Assembly: GCA_018814305.1 (NCBI GenBank)
Contig: JAHJAA010000060.1
Location: 25,233-89,232, forward strand
DNA: 64,000 bases
Direction of reading: 5' to 3'
Source: Pseudomonadota bacterium
Lineage (GTDB): Bacteria > Desulfobacterota > Desulfobulbia > Desulfobulbales > JAGXFP01
A program made the translations under genes and the position numbers. Positions 1-11,733 of this stretch are shown here, in pieces. The notes below the pieces were generated by a model. It was not told the DNA's origin and searched no databases. It worked only from the letters and a program-made list of their open reading frames with translations. Each line of letters starts with the position of its first letter. Within the stretch, counting starts at the first letter, position 1.

Positions 1-2308
1 CACCTCATCATGGACAGAGGGTTCTGTGGTTCTCGACCGTTACCGGATTCTGGAAATCATCTCCGGGGCCATGGGTAACGTGTTTATCAGCGAACATCTC
101 GGTTGGCAGGTCAAGCTGGCCATCAAAGCCCCCCGCCCTGAAGTTCTTACCGATTTGGAGGGATTTAACCGGATTAAAAAAGAGGCTGAGGGGTGGATCA
201 ATATGGGTATGCACCCCAATATTGCCACCTGTTACTATGTCCTCACCCTGGACGAAGTCCCCTTTCTCTTTATCGAATATGTCAACGGCGGGAGCCTCCA
301 TGACTGGATTACCTTAGGGCGCTGCCGGGATCTGCGGAATACGCTTTCACTCGCAATTCAATTTTGTCACGGCATGGAATTCACCCACTCCAAGGGCATT
401 ATTCATAGGGACATCAAACCGAGAAACATCTTATTAACCCGTGATTCTCTGTTGAAAATTACCGATTTTGGCATCATGTTGAATACTGCGGATCCGGCCC
501 CGCAGAACCAGCTTCCAGCCACTGCCCAATCTCAGCACCCCGATATCACCAACGGATTCAGAGGCACCCCCGGTTTCGCCTCTCCGGAACAGTTTCGCGA
601 CACCCATAGGGTTGATCGTCGAACAGATATATTTTCCTTCGGAGTCTGCCTGTGGCTCATGCTTTGCGGACGTAAGCCATTTGAGCGCAATGACCTTGAG
701 CTCCCCCCTCCCACTCCGCGGCCCCAGGCAAACGGAATAAAATTTCCACCGGTATTAAGCGAATTGCTCAAACGCTCCGTAGCCTACGACCCAGATGAAA
801 GGATTGGAGATTTCACCGAACTACGATCCCTCCTGAATGAGGCTCATCTCAGCCTTTACGGAGTCCCCAGTCCTTATTACAACCTGACCGGCATTGATCT
901 GCGATCGGAAAGCCTTAACAACCATGCGATCTCATTAAGTGAATTGGATCGAGGCGACCAGGCGATAGAGGCTCTGTACCATGCCCTGGATATCAATGAC
1001 AGTCTAACCGAGGCTATTTACAACCTTGCCATTATCCGATGGAAACGAAACGAAGCAAATCCCGCCCATCTGATCAGGCAACTCACTGCCGCATCGAAAA
1101 GACTGAAAGAAAAGGAATTTCTGCTGGCTCTTGCTGAAAAAATCAAAAACCGGAGCACAACCGATTCCCCCTCCTCATTCGAGTACCCCGAGCTTAAGCT
1201 CTGCCCTCCTCCGAGTTCTCTTCAGATTTACCGAGAAGACCAGTTGCGTAACGCCATCCATCAGGACATCCAAGGCCATCTCAAGGCAGGACGGAACCAG
1301 GAATGCCAGGAGAGCCTCCTCGCCTCCTGGCGAACTCGCCGTTTTGTTAAAGAACGGCTCTACACCACTACCTATCAAGCACTCATCAAGACCGGAAAAA
1401 AGCACAGGGCCATTGCCATAATCAGACTGAATACCCTGCAAGCCTCATCACGGGCCATCTCCTCCCTTGCCTGTATTGATGGTAAATGGATCATCGCCGC
1501 CGATGGAACTAAGCGAATAATTCTCTGGGACCCCATCCACAAAAAAAAATCTACAATCACGAACGACAACGGAGAGAAAGTCACCTCACTCCTGGTCAAT
1601 CCCACCCGTCCCGTTCTCTACATATACGATGAACGGGGGCGAATTTTATCCTGGTCACCTCTCCACCCTGCCCCCCAGGTAATCTGTCAGCTTGACTCAG
1701 CCATCGTTGCCACCTGTATCAATGACTCAGGTTCAGTCATGGCAACGATCGACCGCAACAACATCCTGGGATTTATCGATCTGGCCAACAACTCCCTGAT
1801 CAGCAAAAAAATAATTGATCCCCCCATCACATCCTTGGCCTTTACCGGGCATCACAGGGATCTTGTCATGGGAACCAATAATGGCCTTATCCACTATTAT
1901 GAAGAAGGTGCCCAGCTCATTAAGATGAGCATCGAAGCCCATGGGAACGGCGTGACCAGTCTGCTGCCATCACCCTCCCAAGGAAGGTTTCACTCGGTGG
2001 GACAAGACGGTTGGGTCAAGCACTATGAATCATCATCAGGGCTCCTGCTCAAATCATTTCGAACCGAGGCAAACTCACCTCTGGCCGCTTTGTCCCTACC
2101 GGAAAAAACGCTTATTCTGACCGACGGTGGAGACGACCTGATCCATCTCTGCAACTGGCAATCCGCTGACAATCTCGACTCTTTGGACTGTCGGGGTAAC
2201 GGAGTTAGCTGTCTGGCCAAGGGCCCTCGTCCTCACATTATTCTAGCCGGGTGTCGAAATGGATCCATCGTCCTGGTGATGGTCCTTTACGAATTAACAT
2301 TTGACTGA
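1..2308 (+). CDS. Hanks-type Ser/Thr protein kinase with TPR-like and WD40 repeats (probably 5'-truncated)
   Basis: Kinase motifs SGAMGNV, LAIK, HRDIKPRN, DFG and GTPGFASPE, then a TPR-like helix (LNNHAISLSEL...EAIYNLAII) and C-terminal WD-like repeats (AHGNGVTSL, GQDGWVK). The frame is open from position 2 (TSSWTEGSVVLDRY), so the true start probably lies upstream of the window. Confidence 0.9.
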   Translation, partial: TSSWTEGSVVLDRYRILEIISGAMGNVFISEHLGWQVKLAIKAPRPEVLTDLEGFNRIKKEAEGWINMGMHPNIATCYYVLTLDEVPFLFIEYVNGGSLHDWITLGRCRDLRNTLSLAIQFCHGMEFTHSKGIIHRDIKPRNILLTRDSLLKITDFGIMLNTADPAPQNQLPATAQSQHPDITNGFRGTPGFASPEQFRDTHRVDRRTDIFSFGVCLWLMLCGRKPFERNDLELPPPTPRPQANGIKFPPVLSELLKRSVAYDPDERIGDFTELRSLLNEAHLSLYGVPSPYYNLTGIDLRSESLNNHAISLSELDRGDQAIEALYHALDINDSLTEAIYNLAIIRWKRNEANPAHLIRQLTAASKRLKEKEFLLALAEKIKNRSTTDSPSSFEYPELKLCPPPSSLQIYREDQLRNAIHQDIQGHLKAGRNQECQESLLASWRTRRFVKERLYTTTYQALIKTGKKHRAIAIIRLNTLQASSRAISSLACIDGKWIIAADGTKRIILWDPIHKKKSTITNDNGEKVTSLLVNPTRPVLYIYDERGRILSWSPLHPAPQVICQLDSAIVATCINDSGSVMATIDRNNILGFIDLANNSLISKKIIDPPITSLAFTGHHRDLVMGTNNGLIHYYEEGAQLIKMSIEAHGNGVTSLLPSPSQGRFHSVGQDGWVKHYESSSGLLLKSFRTEANSPLAALSLPEKTLILTDGGDDLIHLCNWQSADNLDSLDCRGNGVSCLAKGPRPHIILAGCRNGSIVLVMVLYELTFD

Positions 2309-2558
2309 ACATGGTGGACATGTTTTCTTATGCAGTAGAGCCTTCTGATTAAAAGATAAACATAGAGGCCTTAACGTAAACGACTAGGAAATAGCACCTC
2401 ACTTTCCCCGATTGGTTACACCTGCCTCCTGAGTCCATCACCCTTATCTTGTTAGGTGAAGCATATTATTTTGAATCCGATCAAAATTCGAACGCAATCC
2501 GGCCCCTTTTTTTTGACGATTTCTATATCGTGCTGGCGCTTCACTGGGAGATCAGTTG

Positions 2559-3332
2559 ATGATCAACTTCTTTAAGCGACTCTTTCGTACAAAATCCCTA
2601 CCTATGTCCTCTGCCGGACTGACCCACCCAGGGTTGGTCAGAAAAAAAAACGAAGACCATTTTGTCCAATTCAAAGATCGCAAACTCTTCCTGGTCGCAG
2701 ACGGAATGGGTGGCCATCAAGGCGGGGAAGTGGCCAGTCATACAGCAATCCAGATCATAGCCGACGATCTTACCGATACAGTTTTGACTTCCGCTGGATC
2801 CGATCAAGCTGAAATCCGCCATGCCTTGCTGAGAAGTTTTGAACGGGCCAACAATGCTGTGATGGTAAGAGCCAACTCAGATGAAACGTTAACCGGCATG
2901 GGCTGCACTCTGATCGCTGCTGTATTGAATGGCCAGACCCTTCATACCTGCCATGTCGGAGATACCCGATGTTACGTGGTTGACGATCTTGCTCTCCACC
3001 AGATCACCCAGGACCACTCGGCCCTGGTTGAACGACTTAATGATTCCAGCCCAAACTTGGAAAATGATCCTCTCCCAGCGAGACATGCGGTCACCAGAGT
3101 GATCGGCTTCCCTTTTCCGGAACCTCCGGAATATAACGCGGTTCACATCAAGTCTGGAGATCGCATACTGCTCTGCTCCGACGGACTGTGGTCCATGGTT
3201 GATGAAGAGAGCATCCGCACTGTTCTGCAAGAGGCACGCTCTGCTGAAAAAACGGTGGAAACCTTGATTGATCTGGCCAACGAGGCTGGCGGCCTAGACA
3301 ATATCACTGCCGTATTGATTATGATCGACTGA
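2559..3332 (+). CDS. PP2C/Stp1-family Ser/Thr protein phosphatase
   Basis: Motifs GLVRKKNED, VADGMGGH, GMGCTL, HVGDTR, LCSDGL and GGLDNIT; ATG at 2559 after GGGAG. Confidence 0.93.
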   Translation: MINFFKRLFRTKSLPMSSAGLTHPGLVRKKNEDHFVQFKDRKLFLVADGMGGHQGGEVASHTAIQIIADDLTDTVLTSAGSDQAEIRHALLRSFERANNAVMVRANSDETLTGMGCTLIAAVLNGQTLHTCHVGDTRCYVVDDLALHQITQDHSALVERLNDSSPNLENDPLPARHAVTRVIGFPFPEPPEYNAVHIKSGDRILLCSDGLWSMVDEESIRTVLQEARSAEKTVETLIDLANEAGGLDNITAVLIMID

Positions 3333-5423: not shown

Positions 5424-6776
5424 GTGACTTCTCAACCGACCCCCCATATCCCTTTGGCCGAACAGCTTCGCCCGCTGGTTTTAGAGGATTTTATCGGCCA
5501 GGAACACCTTCTGGCTGAAGGCAAACTCCTGCACCGCCTGATCGACCAGCAACAAATTCCCTCACTTATTTTATGGGGCCCCCCGGGGGTCGGCAAGACA
5601 ACCCTGGCCCACATCATTGCCAACACCACCGGGGCAAATTTTGTATTTTTTTCCGCAGTCCTTTCCGGGGTCAAAGAAATTCGATCGATTGTCGAACAGG
5701 CAAAAATCATTCTGAACCTGGAGAGACGTCCTACTATCCTTTTTGTTGATGAAATTCACCGCTTTAACAAAAGCCAGCAGGATGCCTTCCTGCCACATGT
5801 GGAAAGCGGATTACTCACTCTAATCGGAGCGACAACCGAAAATCCTTCCTTTCAGGTCATCGCCCCCCTGCTCTCCAGATGTAGAGTTCTGGTCCTCGAA
5901 CAACTTTCCACCAAGGATCTTCTGGGGATCACCAACCGGGCCATCAATCTCCTCAAGAAAAATGATGCCCGTTGGCAATCATTAACAATTGATGATGATG
6001 CCGCCGATCACCTGGTCAGGATTGCAGACGGAGACGCCAGGCGCCTCTTAAATAGCCTTGAAGTGGCCTGCTCTCTTCTTGAAAATGGTGCCGACACCAA
6101 ACAGGCCCTGACCCTTGACCTGGTCGAAGAGGCCATCCAGCGCCGTAGCCTTCGATATGACAAGGACGGAGAAGAACATTACAATTTAATCTCAGCTCTC
6201 CATAAAAGTATGCGCGATAGCGACCCCGACGGCTCCCTCTACTGGCTTGTTCGAATGCTGCACGCAGGGGAAGAACCCCTCTATATTGCCAGAAGGCTCA
6301 TCCGTTTCGCCTCTGAGGATATTGGGGTAGCCGACCCGACCGCACTCGCCCTAGCACTCAATGCCCGAGAAAGCTATCGAATCCTCGGCTCTCCGGAAGG
6401 CGAACTCTCTTTGGCCCAGGCCGTGATCTACCTGGCCACAGCTCCCAAGAGTAATGCATCATACATGGCCTACCGTGGGGTCTCTCAAGAAATCATGAAA
6501 AGCGGGAGCCTTCCGGTTCCCATGCATATTCGTAACGCTCCCACCGGTTTAATGAAAAAACTTGGGTATGGCGAAGGTTACCAGTATGCCCATGATCATG
6601 CCGATTCCATCGTGTTTCAAGAGCATCTACCCGATGAGCTTCGTGGAAAACAATTCTATCATCCTAGCAACCGTGGCCACGAAGCGGTAGTTGGTGATCG
6701 CCTGAGCAAGTGGCGAAAAATACTTGAACAACGCCAGCACCAAAAAACGGAACCAACCCATCAGCTCAAAAAGTGA
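5424..6776 (+). CDS. rarA: Replication-associated recombination protein A (RarA/MgsA)
   Basis: PLAEQLRP, Walker [38 protein letters not shown] and SEDIG. Confidence 0.96.
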
Positions 6777-6818
6777 CTTTGATTACAAACTGAAAGACCC
6801 CTTAAAAGGAATCACCTT

Positions 6819-8354
6819 ATGAAACAATCAGCCTTTATTTATGTTCTGTTCATCTTCAGCCTTATCGTTCCCCGGACCTCCGGAGCGGCCCCTCAATCCA
6901 ACTTCACCATTCTTTTTTCCAACAACGTCAATGGTGAAACCGAACCATGCGGTTGAAAGGCTCACCAATTGGGCGGTCTGTCCAAAAAAGCGTCACTCTT
7001 CAGTCAACAGCAGGGAACATCTGAAGACACCCTGATTCTTGATGGGGGAGGACTCCTCTTTGACTCCCCCCGAATAACTGTCCACAAAATCAAACAGGCA
7101 GAAATCAACGCCCAGGGCATTATTAAAGCCTATAATCTCATTGGCTACGATGCAGTCGGTATCACCGGTCAGGACCTGGCCGCTGGGTACGATTTTCTCA
7201 ACAAAATCAAGAAAGAATCCAACTTTGCCTGGCTCAGTGCCAATCTCTATCTAAAGGACTCTGTTCTTCCTCTTTTCCAACCATTTCTTTCAAAAATGAT
7301 CGGGAACCAAGCCATAACCATTATCGGATTGACCGGCCCAGGGCTTGACGGTGACCGACAGTTGGAAGAAAAAATCGTCATTCGCCCCTGGCAGGAGATC
7401 CTCCCTGATCTACTCAACACCTCAAAAATAAAAAACACCTTTATTATTTTGCTCACCGACCTGGATCGGAAAAGCTGCCAGGAAATAACCGAACTTTACC
7501 CAAGCATCAACCTCATCATCCAGGCTGCAAATCAGGACGAAAATATCTCTCCGGTTCCGCTCAATGAAACAACTCTCTTGACCTCAACCGGACGAAAAGG
7601 AAAATTCACCGGCCTATTGAGCATTTCCTGGATAAACGGGGGGCGCTGGGATGGGCGTCTGACGGCAGAACTTTCCCGGAAGAAAATCGCCAGGGACAGG
7701 GTTGATCTGTTAATCGACCAATACACCGGAAATCCGGAAAAAACCGAATTGATCAAAAAACTTCAGGAGAAGCGCACCATTTTGAGCGCCGAACTGGCCC
7801 AACTGGAATTAAAAACAAGCCAGCTGGAACAAGCCTCATACTCAATAAAATTTTCTGCAATCGAATCTACGTTGCCCGATGCGCCGGATGTGTCCCAGAT
7901 AGTCGAAGAGACCAAGAGACAGGTCAACCGTACCGGTCAAGATGAAGGGATAAACCGTCAATCGCCGGATCGTTCAAAAATTATTTCAAGCAGCTTCATC
8001 GGCTGGAAGGTTTGTGGGTCCTGTCATTCGGCTCAAGTGGCCAGCTGGCAAACGACCCCCCATTTTGCTTCTTTTGCTGGATTAACCGACACGGAGCAGC
8101 AGTTTAACCGCAATTGCATTCCCTGCCATGTTACCGGAGTTTTTTCTGGTTCCGAAGAGTATGCCCTGGAACTTCCAGAAGAGTTGCAGCTGGTCGGATG
8201 CGAGGCTTGTCACGGCCCGGGGCGAAAACATCAGATGGATCCAAAGGGTAATCCTACCATCCCCCCCGACCAAGTGCTTTGCCTGAGGTGCCACAACCCT
8301 GAAAATGATGATTCATTTGATTTCGTTAGGGATAAGGCTAAAGTCCATCCCTGA
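6819..8354 (+). CDS. Probable exported selenoprotein: degenerate UshA/5'-nucleotidase-like domain with a CGU motif, coiled coil and tetraheme c554-like domain (511 aa)
   Basis: ATG 6819 follows AAGGA and encodes a signal peptide in frame with the 6969 ORF. A single in-frame TGA at 6954-6956 gives EPCG-U-KAHQLGG, with a SECIS-like hairpin at 6969-6985. Four CxxCH motifs: CGSCH, CIPCH, CEACH, CLRCH. Confidence 0.85.
6954..6985 (+). promoter_or_regulatory. In-frame UGA plus bacterial SECIS-like element
   Basis: TGA, 12-nt spacer, then TTGGGC-GGTCT-GTCCAA (6-bp stem with one G-U pair). The GGTCTG core resembles the apical loop of the E. coli fdhF SECIS. Confidence 0.8.
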
Positions 8355-8379
8355 ACTCTGAGTCCACCTCTGTTTTGAT

Positions 8380-8414
8380 AAAAAAAAGCCCTGCCGAAAC
8401 GGCAGGGCTTTTTT
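8380..8414. terminator. Bidirectional intrinsic terminator
   Basis: A8-GCCCTGCCG-AAA-CGGCAGGGC-T6 between convergent genes. Confidence 0.9.
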
Positions 8415-8438
8415 GATACTCTTACAAAATAAAAAGAA

Positions 8439-9368
8439 TCAGCAACCAAATGCCTTCTGCAGAGGCGGCACGGTCTGCTTCTTACGGCTCATCATCCCCT
8501 CAACCCACATGGAGCTGCCTGAAATTTTGGCACCGAAAGCCTTTTCAATCAAAGCGTTATCATCAGAAGCCACCAGCAGGTCGGTACCTTCCTTGACGAC
8601 ATCAGTGAGCATAAACAGCACGGAGTGACGACCGTCAGCCTTTTGATCCTGAACAGCCTTATAGAGATCGTCACGAATCGAAGCGACCTGATCCAGGGTG
8701 GCAAGCTCGATCTGACCAATTCCCACCTTTTTACCGTTCATGTCAAAATCTTTGTAGTCACGGAACAAGAGATCCTTGATCGGCACACCGGCAATCGAGG
8801 ATTTGGCCTTGAGCATCTCCATGAACAATGCATCCTGATCGGTAACCCCGGCCAGGGGCAACAAAGCGGCGACCGCGACCTTATCAGCATTGGTGCAGGT
8901 CGGTGACTTGAAATTAACAGTATCGCTCAGGATAGCACAGAGCATAGCGCCGGCGATATTCTTCGGCAGATCCACTTTACTGTTCTGGTACATCTCCATA
9001 AGCACTGTACAGGTGCAACCAACCGGTTTCGCATAAAAGAAAATAGGACCGTTGGTGGTAACATCACCGATCTTATGATGATCGACGATACCAACCACGT
9101 TGGCACTACCGAGATTAGCCGGACCCTGGGCGAGATCACTGAAATCGACCAGAGCGACATCCTTGCCCGCAGCGTCGGTGAGTTCAGCCGGAGCGGTGAG
9201 ACCAAACTTCTCCAACACAACCTTACTCTCCGGATTCAACTTGTCGGCAGAAATCTGCATACAGGCGACGGCATCGGTGCCGGTTGCCTTCAGGTAATTG
9301 GCATAGGCAATCGCTGAGGCGACGGAATCGGTGTCGGGGTTGGAATGACCTACAACGTGGATACTCAT
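8439..9368 (-). CDS. ppaC: Manganese-dependent (family II) inorganic pyrophosphatase
   Basis: GHSNPDTDS, DHH, AILSDT, DYKDF and SRKKQ motifs; start MSIH at 9368 after GGAGG. Confidence 0.95.
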   Translation of the reverse strand: MSIHVVGHSNPDTDSVASAIAYANYLKATGTDAVACMQISADKLNPESKVVLEKFGLTAPAELTDAAGKDVALVDFSDLAQGPANLGSANVVGIVDHHKIGDVTTNGPIFFYAKPVGCTCTVLMEMYQNSKVDLPKNIAGAMLCAILSDTVNFKSPTCTNADKVAVAALLPLAGVTDQDALFMEMLKAKSSIAGVPIKDLLFRDYKDFDMNGKKVGIGQIELATLDQVASIRDDLYKAVQDQKADGRHSVLFMLTDVVKEGTDLLVASDDNALIEKAFGAKISGSSMWVEGMMSRKKQTVPPLQKAFGC

Positions 9369-9434
9369 TTCAAATTCCTCCATAAAAAATTATTAAAACA
9401 TCATAATAAACATGAGAACTCTCAGTCATATCAT

Positions 9435-10536: not shown

Positions 10537-10974
10537 TCAAGCTGCCAGGCGCTGGGCCTCTTTTTTCTTCCTGATGGTGCAAGCCCGTTCAAAGGCCTTC
10601 CGTTTTCCGTATTTCGTTATTGAAACAGAGGTCTTTCCCTGCTTACCTTCTTTATTAACCCAACTGACCTCGTAACGATTCAACTTGTCATTCAAACGGA
10701 CTCCAACCACACCGGTCGAGGTGTTACTGACAGTAACAATATGTTTATCGGTCCGTTGTTTCCCTAGTTTCTTCTCGGTGGTGTCCCTCCAGGTCAAAGC
10801 AGCCAACAAACTGGAATACCGTCCACCATTCTTCTTATCTGAAAAGAATTTGGAGTGAGTTTTACCGAGAAATCTCACCCGGACATACCAACCGTGGGTT
10901 CGCTTTGAAGGTTGATCGATTCTTGCTACATCTTTGTGTTTTTCCAATAAGATTTTCTCTGACTTTTCTGACAT
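10537..10974 (-). CDS. Small basic protein with tandem AP2-like DNA-binding domains
   Basis: First repeat GWYVRV...SKFFSDKKNGG...AALTWRD; second repeat STGVVGV...YEVSW...SVSITKYGKRKAFERACTIRK. No HNH domain. Start MSEK at 10974. Confidence 0.7.
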   Translation of the reverse strand: MSEKSEKILLEKHKDVARIDQPSKRTHGWYVRVRFLGKTHSKFFSDKKNGGRYSSLLAALTWRDTTEKKLGKQRTDKHIVTVSNTSTGVVGVRLNDKLNRYEVSWVNKEGKQGKTSVSITKYGKRKAFERACTIRKKKEAQRLAA

Positions 10975-11733
10975 TTTCCTGGCTCCCAATTGAGGTGATA
11001 AGAAAACAACTCGCCTCTAATTAAAACTGTAGGAGTTCAAACGCAAAACCACCTCGGCTAGACGTTTTATAAAAAAACTCCCTGACCAAACCTCTCCACA
11101 AAACAATCATATATGGATCCAGAATAAAGGAGCAATTATTTTTTCAAATAATTACCCATTCCGAATCCGAAACTACAATCTACAATTTCGATAATCCCCG
11201 TCGCAGAACGCGAATAGACAATGACGCTATTACAAACTGATCCTATTATATCATAATTTATTTTTAAAAAATAGCCCAAACAGACAACTGCATTACTTTA
11301 ATTTCACCAAAATGGCAAAAAAACGACACAACCTAAGGCTAAGGCCGACCAAGAAGCTCCACTAAAGACTTTGAAACCTCTACCAAACACCTTACGAACA
11401 TCATCTGCTCGCCCAATGTAATTTCAAACAAGCACAACCAGAAACAAATCAAGAAATAAATCTAAAAATGGACTATATGTTCGGTTCGGTTAATTGCCGA
11501 TGCACGCGACAGGTACAAAACATACCAAACCAATTAAGGTAAGCTCCTCTTTAATTCTATTTTTTTCTTGAATTGGCGCCATAACCTTTCAATTTCATGC
11601 ACCAATAACTATTGACGGCTACTTGCGCTTCAACAGGGTTCGTTTCTCAGCCATGACCTCCGCCACATTTAACAACCCGATTGTACACAAAAACATATAT
11701 TAAAATCCTAAACGGATGCGCCAAGGAACAACA

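What the first reader, a model, noticed from the sequence alone, without database searches (positions are those of the whole stretch)
6819..8354. Hidden selenoprotein: exported CGU-motif domain fused to a tetraheme cytochrome c
Seen: the ORF track starts at a TTG (6969), but the frame extends back to ATG 6819, which has an RBS and encodes a signal peptide. It is interrupted only by TGA at codon 46 (EPCG-U-K), and a hairpin with an fdhF-like GGUCU loop follows, with the loop about 19 nt after the UGA. The N-domain has the UshA/5'-nucleotidase layout but its metal ligands are eroded: FSNNVNG for HTNDxHG, DGGG for DAGD, GITGQD for GNHE. A coiled coil and four CxxCH motifs follow. Known: UGA plus a downstream SECIS encodes Sec, and UshA-like CxU/CxC families have been noted in deltaproteobacteria without an assigned function. 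Inference: this is a periplasmic redox enzyme in which a catalytically dead phosphoesterase fold holds a Cys-x-Sec site wired to hemes. It could couple thiol/selenol chemistry (for example sulfur or polysulfide species) to heme electron transfer. This is my best candidate in the window for an uncharacterised system.
Basis: partly seen in the sequence, partly recalled or inferred. Interest (0 to 1): 0.85.

Follow-up and report, generated by a model that had tools for sequence, protein, structure and literature searches.

The report
Known UshA-like selenoprotein with four hemes
This is a real selenocysteine-containing, exported protein that joins a metal-less nucleotidase-like fold to a four-heme cytochrome, but it belongs to an already catalogued family whose function nobody has yet tested.

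Summary
ATG 6819 opens a 511-codon frame whose only internal stop is TGA 6954-6956 (EPCG-U-K). A 6-bp hairpin (6969-6985) follows. Its GGUCU loop lies at nt 22-26 from the UGA, the same register as in E. coli fdhF.

It is a true Sec codon:
- 19 of 21 aligned homologs have Cys at that column, one has Ser and one starts after it.
- 41 of 43 full-length orthologs in the same order carry the TGA.
- The hairpin fixes synonymous sites only in Sec forms: second Gly codon GGT in 34 of 36, against 3 of 23 Cys forms.
- selA, selB, selD and tRNA-Sec are all in the genome.

It is not new. The whole protein, heme tail included, matches NCBIfam NF041198 'UshA-like (seleno)protein', PCGU type, at 566 bits (cut-off 275). 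The family has been listed in selenoproteome surveys since 2008.

The fold is 5'-nucleotidase-like with the His/Asn metal ligands replaced. The tail is a c554-like tetraheme module.

The function is untested. A Cys-x-Sec redox site passing electrons to hemes is the best inference, but no operon partner or Sec-to-heme distance supports a substrate.

The parts
6806..6810 (+). Shine-Dalgarno-like AAGGA, 8 nt before ATG 6819
   Evidence: Read.
6819..8354 (+). Full coding sequence: 511 codons plus stop, UGA at codon 46 read as Sec. UshA-like (seleno)protein, NF041198.
   Evidence: 566.3 bits, cut-off 275, protein residues 9-502 on model positions 4-518 of 519. One search finds the same place in the genome with 1 TGA inside.
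6819..6887 (+). Predicted Sec-type signal peptide, residues 1-23; probable cleavage after S-G-A
   Evidence: Read by eye. Hydrophobic N-termini are present in all 30 related loci. No signal-peptide predictor was available.
6954..6956 (+). In-frame TGA = selenocysteine codon 46 (E-P-C-G-U-K)
   Evidence: Cys at this column in 19 of 21 homologs, 1 Ser, 1 starts after it. TGA in 28 of 30 related loci. Contigs of two runs of one sample show no other letter here.
6969..6985 (+). Bacterial SECIS-type hairpin: stem 6969-6974 / 6980-6985, loop GGUCU 6975-6979
   Evidence: -6.4 kcal/mol. (90.5% paired in 36 Sec forms; pair 16-32 is UA in 15 and CG in 11). (GGC GGT CTG fixed in Sec forms only). (same register as fdhF).
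6894..7634 (+). 5'-nucleotidase/metallophosphoesterase-like N-domain (residues about 26-272) with the dimetal ligands replaced; the conserved E-P-C-G-U loop follows strand 1
   Evidence: AF2 model. Foldseek 2ush_A E 8.3e-18. PDB profile alignments.
7653..7823 (+).
   Evidence: DSSP on the model; 10-residue blocks covering 281-340 average pLDDT 83-98.
7884..7955 (+). Long linker helix (residues 356-379) leading into the heme domain
7971..8351 (+). Tetraheme c-type cytochrome domain, c554/NrfB/OcwA-like (residues about 385-511)
   Evidence: Pfam PF13435, 43.7 bits against 20.8. PDB profile hits 6i5b, 1bvb and 2ozy.
8013..8027 (+). Heme-binding motif 1, C399-G-S-C-H403
   Evidence: invariant in 59 of 59 sequences.
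8115..8129 (+). Heme-binding motif 2, C433-I-P-C-H437
   Evidence: invariant in 59 of 59.
8199..8213 (+). Heme-binding motif 3, C461-E-A-C-H465
   Evidence: invariant in 59 of 59.
8280..8294 (+). Heme-binding motif 4, C488-L-R-C-H492
   Evidence: invariant in 59 of 59.
8382..8414 (.). Strong hairpin flanked by an A-run and a T-run: a bidirectional intrinsic terminator shared with the convergent ppaC gene
   Evidence: -25.1 kcal/mol, z -8.1, 0 of 200 shuffles as good. The consensus scan did not list it.

Best explanation
The gene at 6819-8354 encodes a 511-residue exported selenoprotein. It is an orthologous member of the catalogued family NF041198, 'UshA-like (seleno)protein' of the PCGU type.

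How UGA 6954 is read: as selenocysteine, through SelB and tRNA-Sec, guided by the mini-hairpin at 6969-6985. Its GGUCU loop sits in the same register as in fdhF.

What the protein is made of:
- A 5'-nucleotidase-like alpha/beta sandwich that has lost the His and Asn ligands of the dimetal centre.
- A conserved E-P-C-G-U loop right after strand 1, where metallophosphoesterase motif I normally sits.
- A helical hairpin and a linker helix.
- A compact four-heme c554-like domain.

Most likely mechanism (inferred, not shown):
- Cys44 and Sec46 form a redox-active selenenylsulfide/selenol pair in the re-tooled pocket.
- The four c-hemes carry electrons between that site and the periplasmic cytochrome pool.
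- The protein would therefore be a periplasmic (seleno)thiol:cytochrome oxidoreductase.
- The substrate is unknown. Candidates are an inorganic sulfur species, a peroxide, or a thiol/disulfide.

My odds: about 0.95 that it is a real Sec protein of this family, and about 0.45 for the redox-relay mechanism.
For: Identity:
- NF041198 at 566.3 bits against a cut-off of 275, end to end.
- Pfam cytochrome c554 at 43.7 bits against 20.8.

Sec decoding:
- Cys at the column in 19 of 21 homologs. In the 59-row alignment the column holds 49 C (Sec read as C), 1 S and 9 gaps.
- 41 of 43 full-length matches in 61 genomes of the order have exactly one TGA.
- PCG-TGA in 28 of 30 loci.
- Signal peptides and the YSN[DN]VxGE[TI]EPCGU block are conserved upstream of the TGA.
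- Second-Gly codon GGT in 34 of 36 Sec forms against 3 of 23 Cys forms.
- Hairpin 90.5% paired, with a UA/CG swap at the closing pair.
- Same loop register as E. coli fdhF.
- selA; selB twice, one copy next to tRNA-Sec; selD twice, one copy itself with a TGA.

Fold:
- AF2 mean pLDDT 87.8, pTM 0.86.
- Foldseek to E. coli 5'-nucleotidase 2ush, E 8.3e-18; also CD73 and SoxB.

Ligand loss, from the profile-to-structure alignments:
- Motif I His aligns to a variable residue.
- DAGD aligns to LDxGx.
- GNHE aligns to xxxD.
- The later His motifs align to Ser or Gln-Ala.

Redox reading:
- The E-P-C-G-[C/U] motif is kept across phyla.
- From general knowledge (recalled), Sec in bacterial proteins is nearly always a redox-active residue, and CxC/CxU are known redox motifs.
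- The N-domain is almost always fused to the heme domain: by my reading of the Pfam column, 36 of 40 hits carry PF13435, and no hit lists a domain other than multiheme-cytochrome families.
- All four CxxCH motifs plus His415 and His471 are invariant in 59 of 59.
- Cytochrome c assembly genes are present in the genome.
Against: - No experiment exists. I found no paper that discusses the function.
- I could not obtain model coordinates, so the Sec-to-heme distance is unknown.
- The loop that carries C44 and U46 is the least confident part of the N-domain (block 41-50 averages pLDDT 60).
- There is no functional operon partner. The gene sits between rarA and a convergent ppaC, and this housekeeping synteny is kept in 17 of 21 and 15 of 21 loci.
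- Neighbours of 80 distant loci share nothing universal.
- One homolog has Ser at the Sec column (P0015).
- Conserved acidic residues (Glu42, Asp75, Asp119) beside two soft ligands fit a metal site just as well.
- The 2008 survey text names UshA-like among the three major families (with SelD and FdhA) that lack a conserved Cys-based redox motif, although its table lists CxU.
Confidence: 0.55

Rival explanations
1. Cys44 and Sec46, together with the conserved carboxylates (Glu42, Asp75, Asp119), form a new metal or metalloid site that replaces the lost dimetal centre. It could hold Fe, Ni, Cu or Zn, or bind As or Se. Sec would act as a ligand, as in [NiFeSe] hydrogenase or formate dehydrogenase, and the hemes would feed that centre.
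For: - The conserved motifs lie at the ends of strands 1, 2 and 3, where metallophosphoesterases place their metal ligands. This comes from the secondary structure read against the alignments.
- Asp75 and Asp119 are at least 90% conserved.
- Glu-x-Glu-Pro-Cys-Gly-Sec offers both hard and soft ligands.
- From recall: the two best-known bacterial Sec enzymes use Sec as a metal ligand.
Against: - The Asp of motif I is Asn in the window protein and its nearest relatives (NNVNG).
- The bridging Asp position is variable (N, G, D, A or S).
- No His remains at any ligand position.
- No metal-insertion or chaperone gene lies nearby.
Confidence: 0.2
2. The Cys/Sec loop, or the C-terminal His/Cys position, supplies the sixth ligand of one heme. 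That would give a His/Cys(Sec)-ligated catalytic heme like those of TsdA, SoxA or DsrJ (recalled), which make or break sulfur-sulfur bonds.
For: - Only two candidate distal His residues (415 and 471) are invariant for four hemes.
- A third position, 18-22 residues after the last CxxCH, is His in 37 and Cys in 22 of 59 sequences.
- So one heme lacks an obvious conserved sixth ligand inside the heme domain.
Against: - The window protein has His, not Cys, at the C-terminal position.
- Cytochrome c554 itself has a five-coordinate heme (recalled), so a missing ligand needs no donor from the N-domain.
- There is no structural evidence that the loop reaches a heme.
Confidence: 0.1
3. It is still a phosphoesterase or nucleotidase (or a SoxB-type thiosulfohydrolase), and the heme domain is an accessory.
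For: - 5'-nucleotidase fold.
- Weak NCBIfam matches to CpdB, UshA and SoxB.
Against: - The His/Asn metal ligands and the catalytic His align to other residues family-wide.
- Pfam reports neither Metallophos nor a 5'-nucleotidase C-terminal domain.
- SoxB scores 30.6 bits against a cut-off of 550, and UshA 30.5 against 600.
Confidence: 0.03
4. The TGA is a genuine stop or an error. The real product would be the 461-aa protein from TTG 6969, and the upstream frame would be non-coding.
For: - AAGG lies 8 nt before TTG 6969.
- Gene callers output exactly this 461-aa product (P0002).
- Folding energy of the region is unremarkable.
Against: - The 461-aa product would lack a signal peptide, yet it carries four c-type heme motifs that need export.
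- The upstream 45 codons are conserved as protein across phyla.
- The TGA recurs at the same column in 41 of 43 orthologs.
- Contigs of two runs agree on the TGA, though both come from one sample.
Confidence: 0.02

Closest known systems
NCBIfam NF041198 'UshA_like_PCGU', UshA-like (seleno)protein (the CxU UshA-like family of selenoproteome surveys)
   Same: - Full-length match at 566 bits against a cut-off of 275, covering the N-domain, helices and tetraheme tail.
- P-C-G-U motif present.
- Both Sec and Cys forms exist.
- The same family is named for homologs P0003, P0064 and P0103 by NCBI.
   Different: - Nothing essential differs.
- In the window's clade the motif-I Asp is Asn (NNVNG).
- The bridging-Asp position is Gly (DGGG).
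- The candidate C-terminal heme ligand is His rather than Cys.
E. coli UshA / 5'-nucleotidase and human CD73 (PDB 1ush, 2ush, 4h2i and others)
   Same: - Same N-terminal alpha/beta metallophosphoesterase fold (Foldseek E about 1e-17 to 1e-15, TM 0.40-0.48 on the whole 511-residue query).
- Shared GGL(S/A)R and LSAN motifs.
- A linker helix leads to a second domain.
   Different: - The metal ligands and catalytic His are replaced.
- The C-terminal nucleotide-binding domain is replaced by a tetraheme cytochrome.
- A helical hairpin is inserted.
- A Cys-Gly-Sec loop has been added.
SoxB thiosulfohydrolase (PDB 2wdc; TIGR04486)
   Same: - Same fold family and periplasmic location.
- It acts beside heme proteins (SoxXA) on a Cys-bound sulfur substrate (recalled). 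That makes it a tempting functional analogy.
   Different: - Scores 30.6 bits against a cut-off of 550.
- SoxB keeps a dimanganese site (recalled), which this family lacks.
- No sox genes lie nearby.
Cytochrome c554 (1bvb/1ft5), NrfB (2ozy) and the OcwA nonaheme cytochrome (6i5b)
   Same: - Four CxxCH motifs with c554-type spacing.
- Profile E-values: 5.1e-29 to 6i5b, 9.1e-20 to c554, 9.9e-06 to NrfB.
- These are electron-transfer modules.
   Different: - Here the module is a C-terminal domain of a larger enzyme-like protein.
- I know 6i5b as OcwA only from a search listing and its abstract.
NF049981 'UshA-like (seleno)protein family 2' (CxxU), and a different, N-domain-only PCGU paralog in this genome (G000:C35, L024 1459-2514)
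   Same: - A UshA-like N-domain with Sec in the loop after strand 1.
- The in-genome paralog also has D-P-C-G-U.
   Different: - No heme domain.
- The paralog keeps more of the classical ligands (DGGD, SHLG and AAHG motifs).
- It scores below both family cut-offs: 162.6 against 275, and 59.1 against 140.

Membership tests
NF041198 UshA-like (seleno)protein, PCGU type | Score above the curated equivalog cut-off over the full model length | tested here: met
   566.3 bits against 275; protein residues 9-502 on model positions 4-518 of 519. The genome search gives 558.2 bits with 1 TGA inside.
NF041198 UshA-like (seleno)protein, PCGU type | P-C-G-U/C motif after strand 1 | tested here: met
   E-P-C-G-U at codons 42-46. 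The same motif is in 30 of 30 related loci.
NF041198 UshA-like (seleno)protein, PCGU type | C-terminal multiheme domain as part of the architecture | tested here: met
   The model covers it. All 59 aligned members have exactly four CxxCH motifs.
Bacterial selenoprotein (SelB/SECIS-dependent UGA decoding) | In-frame UGA aligned with Cys in homologs | tested here: met
   19 Cys, 1 Ser and 1 absent among 21 homologs.
Bacterial selenoprotein (SelB/SECIS-dependent UGA decoding) | Stem-loop just downstream of UGA, with a G/U-containing apical loop at the fdhF-like distance | tested here: met
   - Hairpin 6969-6985 with loop GGUCU at nt 22-26, as in fdhF.
- Conserved in 36 Sec forms, with synonymous sites fixed.
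- Folding-energy z-scores and Rfam were uninformative.
Bacterial selenoprotein (SelB/SECIS-dependent UGA decoding) | selA, selB, selD and tRNA-Sec present in the genome | tested here: met
   all are above their cut-offs, and ARAGORN calls tRNA-SeC with anticodon tca.
Bacterial selenoprotein (SelB/SECIS-dependent UGA decoding) | Selenium actually incorporated at the position | not testable with these tools
   Needs 75Se labelling or mass spectrometry.
5'-nucleotidase / UshA (calcineurin-like metallophosphoesterase plus 5'-nucleotidase C-domain) | N-terminal metallophosphoesterase fold | tested here: met
   Foldseek 2ush_A E 8.3e-18. PDB profile hits 3ivd, 2z1a and 1ush at E about 1e-20.
5'-nucleotidase / UshA (calcineurin-like metallophosphoesterase plus 5'-nucleotidase C-domain) | Dimetal ligands and catalytic His (motifs D-x-H, G-D, G-N-H-E, and the later His motifs). 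Their role as ligands is recalled from the UshA structure papers. | tested here: not met
   - Alignments: NDxH aligns to N[DN]Vx, DAGD to LDxGx, GNHE to xxxD, IHEG to LSxL, and GGHSH to IQAxx.
- The window protein reads NNVN, DGGG, TGQD, LTDL and IQAAN.
5'-nucleotidase / UshA (calcineurin-like metallophosphoesterase plus 5'-nucleotidase C-domain) | C-terminal substrate-binding domain | tested here: not met
   No such Pfam match. Residues 385-511 are a cytochrome.
SoxB thiosulfohydrolase (TIGR04486) | Score above the equivalog cut-off | tested here: not met
   30.6 bits against 550.
Multiheme c-type cytochrome, c554-like (PF13435) | CxxCH motifs and a Pfam score above gathering | tested here: met
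   Four motifs. PF13435 at 43.7 bits against 20.8.
Multiheme c-type cytochrome, c554-like (PF13435) | Export signal and a cytochrome c maturation system in the genome | tested here: met
   - Signal peptide read by eye.
- Three PF01578 matches above the cut-off in G000.
Multiheme c-type cytochrome, c554-like (PF13435) | Covalently bound heme | not testable with these tools
   Needs heme staining or spectroscopy.

The most novel reading that the evidence does not exclude
The family is a so far unrecognised class of periplasmic enzyme. An ancestral 5'-nucleotidase/SoxB-type scaffold lost its dimetal centre and gained a Cys-Gly-Sec(Cys) redox or metal site in the same pocket. The nucleotide-binding C-domain was swapped for a four-heme wire.

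In Desulfobulbales it is a near-universal core gene, almost always in the Sec form. There it would couple selenol chemistry on a small periplasmic substrate to the cytochrome pool. Candidate substrates are a sulfur intermediate of disproportionation or sulfide oxidation, or a peroxide.

Lineages with Cys instead of His at the C-terminal ligand position would carry a His/Cys-ligated heme.
Probability: 0.3. Interest if true: 0.65.

Novelty: new member of a known kind. Interest (0 to 1): 0.3.

Why it matters
For annotation:
- This is a textbook case of a selenoprotein that stop-to-stop gene calling truncates. The collection's own entry for this gene is the 461-aa TTG product (P0002).
- Even the record named 'UshA-like (seleno)protein' from Desulfurivibrio alkaliphilus starts after the Sec (P0103).

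For biology:
- The family is catalogued but has no assigned function.
- It is present above cut-off in 50 of 61 genomes sampled from the window's order, nearly always as the Sec form, at a conserved chromosomal position.
- Homologs named by their sources are Desulfobulbaceae, Desulfopila and Desulfurivibrio. From recall, that group holds sulfur disproportionators and cable bacteria.
- A conserved, exported, heme-wired selenoenzyme of unknown substrate in that group is a fair target for biochemistry.
- It is not a discovery of this scan.

Tried and rejected
SECIS by general tools:
- The 67-nt MFE is no better than shuffles.
- Rfam at E up to 10 gave nothing.
- RNAalifold on 36 Sec forms returned only 2 pairs.
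- I therefore relied on a named structure counted on the alignment, on codon statistics and on direct comparison with fdhF.

Gene context:
- The window's neighbours are housekeeping genes.
- Clustering neighbours of 80 distant loci found no universal partner. It gave only lineage-specific ones: 8 Planctomycetota/Verrucomicrobiota loci with an upstream DUF4159 gene and two large proteins without a Pfam match, plus ABC ATPases and Ser/Thr kinases elsewhere.
- Among 20 relatives plus the window, only the rarA and ppaC synteny is kept.

Paralog lead:
- A DsbA-like CPYC gene follows the in-genome paralog.
- The paralog was found in only 3 of 151 genomes of the order at E <= 1e-30.
- No DsbA-like gene lies beside the two others, or beside the main gene in 20 relatives.
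- I dropped it as support.

Domain partners: an N-domain-only search gave 40 hits, nearly all with PF13435 and none with another partner domain.

Expression: no RNA holder was listed.

Reads: only Logan contigs of two runs of one sample, one of them probably the source. There were no differences, but this is not independent evidence.

Literature on function:
- Three papers hold 'UshA-like' together with 'selenoprotein', and they list the family in tables or name it in a single sentence, without a function.
- 'nucleotidase + multiheme + selenocysteine' gave 0 papers.
- 'nucleotidase / c554 / selenoprotein' gave nothing relevant among the 12 listed of 106.
- I saw passages of the three papers, not their whole texts. 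Their supplements are closed and may hold per-family notes.

Sec-to-heme distance: not obtainable, because the structure tool returns no coordinates.

Full report
**1. What is in the sequence**

- Window 6819-8354 (+) is one reading frame of 511 codons. It has a single internal TGA at 6954-6956 (codon 46, E-P-C-G-U-K) and a terminal TGA at 8352-8354.
- A mechanical ORF list splits it into a 45-aa piece and a 461-aa piece that starts at TTG 6969. The 461-aa piece is what the protein collection holds for this gene (P0002).
- ATG 6819 is preceded by AAGGA with an 8-nt spacer.
- Residues 1-23 read as a Sec-type signal peptide. This is by eye.
- TTG 6969 also has AAGG 8 nt upstream, so ribosome-binding sites alone do not choose the start.

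**2. The UGA is a selenocysteine codon**

- In an alignment with 21 homologs of about 500-540 aa, the column holds Cys in 19 and Ser in one (P0015). One sequence (P0103) starts after it. The block upstream (signal peptide, then F-Y-S-N-D-V-x-G-E-T-E-P-C-G) is conserved.
- NF041198 was searched in 61 genomes of the window's relatives. 53 had a match at E <= 1e-40 and 50 were above the curated cut-off.
- By my reading of that table, 43 rows span the whole model. Of these, 41 have exactly one TGA inside and 2 have none.
- In the 30 loci fetched, 28 read P-C-G-TGA and 2 read P-C-G-TGC. All have a hydrophobic N-terminus 32-53 codons upstream.
- The genome has selA (624 bits), two selB-like genes above cut-off (one beside tRNA-Sec), two selD genes (one itself with an in-frame TGA), and a tRNA-SeC with anticodon tca.
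- Contigs of two runs of one sample show no other letter at the TGA. These are not independent of the assembly.

**3. The SECIS**

- A 6-bp hairpin (6969-6974 paired with 6980-6985) carries the loop GGUCU at 6975-6979, which is nt 22-26 counted from the U of UGA.
- I fetched E. coli K-12 fdhF by accession. Its GGTCT occupies the same nt 22-26.
- Energy is a weak witness. The 67-nt fold has z +1.1. The 23-nt hairpin gives -6.4 kcal/mol, z -2.6. Rfam gave nothing and RNAalifold did not find the hairpin.
- The first 31 nt of fdhF from its UGA also score z +0.47, so this test cannot reject a SECIS.
- The comparative evidence is strong. Among motif-matched loci there are 36 Sec forms (35 distinct) and 31 Cys forms.
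- The Sec forms have GGC at the first Gly in 35 of 36, GGT at the second in 34 of 36, and CTG at the Leu in 34 of 36.
- Of the 31 Cys forms, 23 have Gly-Gly at the same place. They use GGT at the second Gly in 3 of 23, and varied codons elsewhere.
- With the hairpin named on the alignment, 90.5% of cells pair, against 27.6-61.4% when the 3' partner is slid. The closing pair is UA in 15, CG in 11, UG in 1 and unpaired in 8.
- These sequences are related, so the shuffle counts (0 and 1 of 500) overstate the case.

**4. What the protein is**

- NCBIfam gives NF041198 'UshA_like_PCGU, UshA-like (seleno)protein' (equivalog) at 566.3 bits against a cut-off of 275. It covers residues 9-502 on model positions 4-518 of 519, so the model includes the heme tail.
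- Pfam sees only the tail: Cytochrome_C554 at 43.7 bits against 20.8, plus cytochrome c7 and paired-CXXCH.
- AlphaFold2 on a 59-row alignment gives mean pLDDT 87.8 and pTM 0.86. The model has these parts:
  - a beta-alpha sandwich (about residues 26-272);
  - a helical hairpin (279-335);
  - a strand that returns to the sheet (339-347);
  - a long helix (356-379);
  - a small helical heme domain.
- The loop at 41-50, which carries C44 and U46, is the weakest part of the N-domain (mean pLDDT 60).
- Foldseek puts E. coli 5'-nucleotidase first (2ush_A, E 8.3e-18), followed by CD73 and SoxB.
- A profile search of PDB sequences gives the same N-domain relatives. For the tail it gives 6i5b, cytochrome c554 and NrfB. 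The 6i5b chain is the OcwA nonaheme cytochrome according to a search listing.

**5. A dead phosphoesterase site, re-used**

- The profile-to-structure alignments place the family's residues against the classical motifs as follows:
  - N-D-x-H aligns with N-[D/N]-V-x;
  - D-A-G-D aligns with L-D-x-G-x;
  - G-N-H-E aligns with x-x-x-D;
  - the two later His motifs align with Ser or Gln-Ala.
- That these motifs are the metal ligands of UshA is recalled from the structure literature. I did not read it here.
- What stays conserved in the N-domain is Pro43-Cys44-Gly45-Cys/Sec46, Gly52-Gly53, Asp75, Gly77, Asp119 and Ala141-Asn142.
- These residues lie after strands 1, 2 and 3, where the fold normally builds its active site. 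This is an inference read together.
- The heme domain follows a linker helix, as the nucleotide-binding C-domain does in 5'-nucleotidases. That arrangement is also recalled. It may therefore face the same cleft, but this too is an inference. I could not obtain coordinates or any Sec-to-heme distance.

**6. The heme domain**

- All 59 aligned sequences have exactly four CxxCH motifs, and His415 and His471 are invariant.
- A third position, 18-22 residues after the last CxxCH, is His in 37 and Cys in 22 of 59. The window protein has His510.
- No fourth conserved ligand shows within the domain.
- Cytochrome c assembly genes are in the genome.

**7. Distribution and context**

- Among the 80 kept are Desulfobulbaceae, Myxococcota, Planctomycetota, Verrucomicrobiota, Acidobacteriota, Latescibacterota, Nitrospinia, Scalindua and marine Gammaproteobacteria, at 20-40% identity.
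- The E-P-C-G-[C/U] motif persists in them.
- In the window the gene lies 42 nt after rarA/mgsA (5424-6776). It converges on a Mn-dependent pyrophosphatase gene (8439-9383) across a strong bidirectional terminator.
- This order is kept in 17 of 21 loci (rarA) and 15 of 21 loci (ppaC) of the order. That speaks for a vertically inherited core gene, not for a functional operon.
- No partner gene is shared by the distant loci.
- The N-domain hardly occurs with any other partner domain.

**8. Mechanism**

*Shown by computation:*
- a Sec-decoding context;
- an export signal;
- a nucleotidase fold without its ligands;
- four heme motifs.

*Inferred:*
- Cys44 and Sec46 act as a redox pair (selenenylsulfide/selenol) in the old active-site pocket, and the hemes link it to the periplasmic cytochrome pool.
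- I put this at about 0.45.
- It rests on the general rule that bacterial Sec is a redox residue and CxU a redox motif (both recalled), and on the tight fusion with an electron-transfer module.

*Rivals:*
- A new metal or metalloid site built from Cys, Sec, Glu and Asp (0.2).
- A Cys/Sec- or C-terminal-Cys-ligated catalytic heme of the TsdA/SoxA kind (0.1).
- Residual phosphoesterase activity (0.03).
- A true stop with a TTG start (0.02).

*Substrate:* nothing here points to one. Relatives in many phyla that are, from recall, aerobic argue against a strictly sulfur-linked role.

**9. Compared with what is known**

- The UshA-like CxU family is in the table of the 2008 GOS selenoproteome paper, with 76 Sec and 92 Cys sequences. 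That paper names UshA-like among its major families while discussing the 51 previously characterized families (PMC2398784, passages seen).
- It is also in reviews of 2022 (PMC9312934) and 2026 (PMC13188914, which cites NF041198 and a second family, NF049981).
- NCBI already names homologs 'UshA-like (seleno)protein'.
- I found no paper in the searched library that discusses the heme domain or a function. The supplements were closed.
- So the gene is a new member of a known, functionally unassigned family.

**10. Verdict**

- Novelty: new member of a known kind.
- Interest: 0.3.

Noticed in passing
G000:C35:22012-23064 (-), = L024 1459-2514 (-): A second, shorter UshA-like selenoprotein gene in the same genome. 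It is 351 aa with D-P-C-G-U and no heme domain, and it keeps more classical ligand motifs (DGGD, SHLG, AAHG). It scores below both family cut-offs (162.6 against 275 for NF041198; 59.1 against 140 for NF049981). A DsbA-like CPYC thioredoxin-fold gene follows it on the same strand (L024 154-1209). It was found in only 3 of 151 genomes of the order, and the DsbA link is not repeated in the other two.
   Followed up: partly
Alignment A3, column of window residue His510 (window 8346-8348): The position 18-22 residues after the fourth CxxCH is His in 37 and Cys in 22 of 59 family members. Cys occurs in several close relatives of the window genome. It is a candidate axial heme ligand that switches between His and Cys.
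   Followed up: partly
G000:C18:28023-28952 (-), L011; G000:C19 and G000:C10: One of two selD genes itself has an in-frame TGA (a Sec-containing SelD). There are two selB-like genes above the cut-off, and the C19 copy lies next to tRNA-Sec.
   Followed up: no
window 5424-9383, and loci L138-L157: The gene order rarA/mgsA, then the UshA-like selenoprotein, then a convergent Mn-dependent pyrophosphatase is kept across several families of the order: 17 of 21 loci for rarA and 15 of 21 for ppaC.
   Followed up: yes
G058:C8:32382-33497, G050:C96:10639-11757, G013:C14:20361-21473: Some relatives have Sec forms that match only model positions about 2-389, in open frames of 411-421 aa. These look like versions without the heme domain.
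   Followed up: no
L086, L101, L106, L109, L111, L113 and two more loci: In 8 Planctomycetota/Verrucomicrobiota loci the distant Cys-form homolog lies directly downstream of a DUF4159 gene. Upstream of that are two large genes (about 760 and 950 aa) that also cluster, the first of them in 7 of the loci. In the loci I scanned these large proteins have no Pfam match (both in L086, the 962-aa one in L109). The group looks like a conserved operon.
   Followed up: partly
P0103 and alignment A1: The NCBI record named 'UshA-like (seleno)protein' from Desulfurivibrio alkaliphilus, as held in the collection, starts at a Met a few residues after the Sec column. It therefore lacks the signal peptide and the PCGU motif.
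   Followed up: no
window 10537-10989 (-): A 150-aa ORF with a Pfam AP2 DNA-binding domain (41.7 bits against 33.3). It is conserved next to the synteny block in 9 of 21 loci.
   Followed up: no
window 26-2308 (+) and 2556-3332 (+): A Ser/Thr kinase fused to WD40 beta-propeller repeats, followed by a PP2C phosphatase. Both are conserved upstream in 6-7 of 21 loci.
   Followed up: no
window 8382-8414: A very stable hairpin (-25.1 kcal/mol) flanked by an A-run and a T-run serves as a bidirectional terminator. The consensus terminator scan did not list it.
   Followed up: yes
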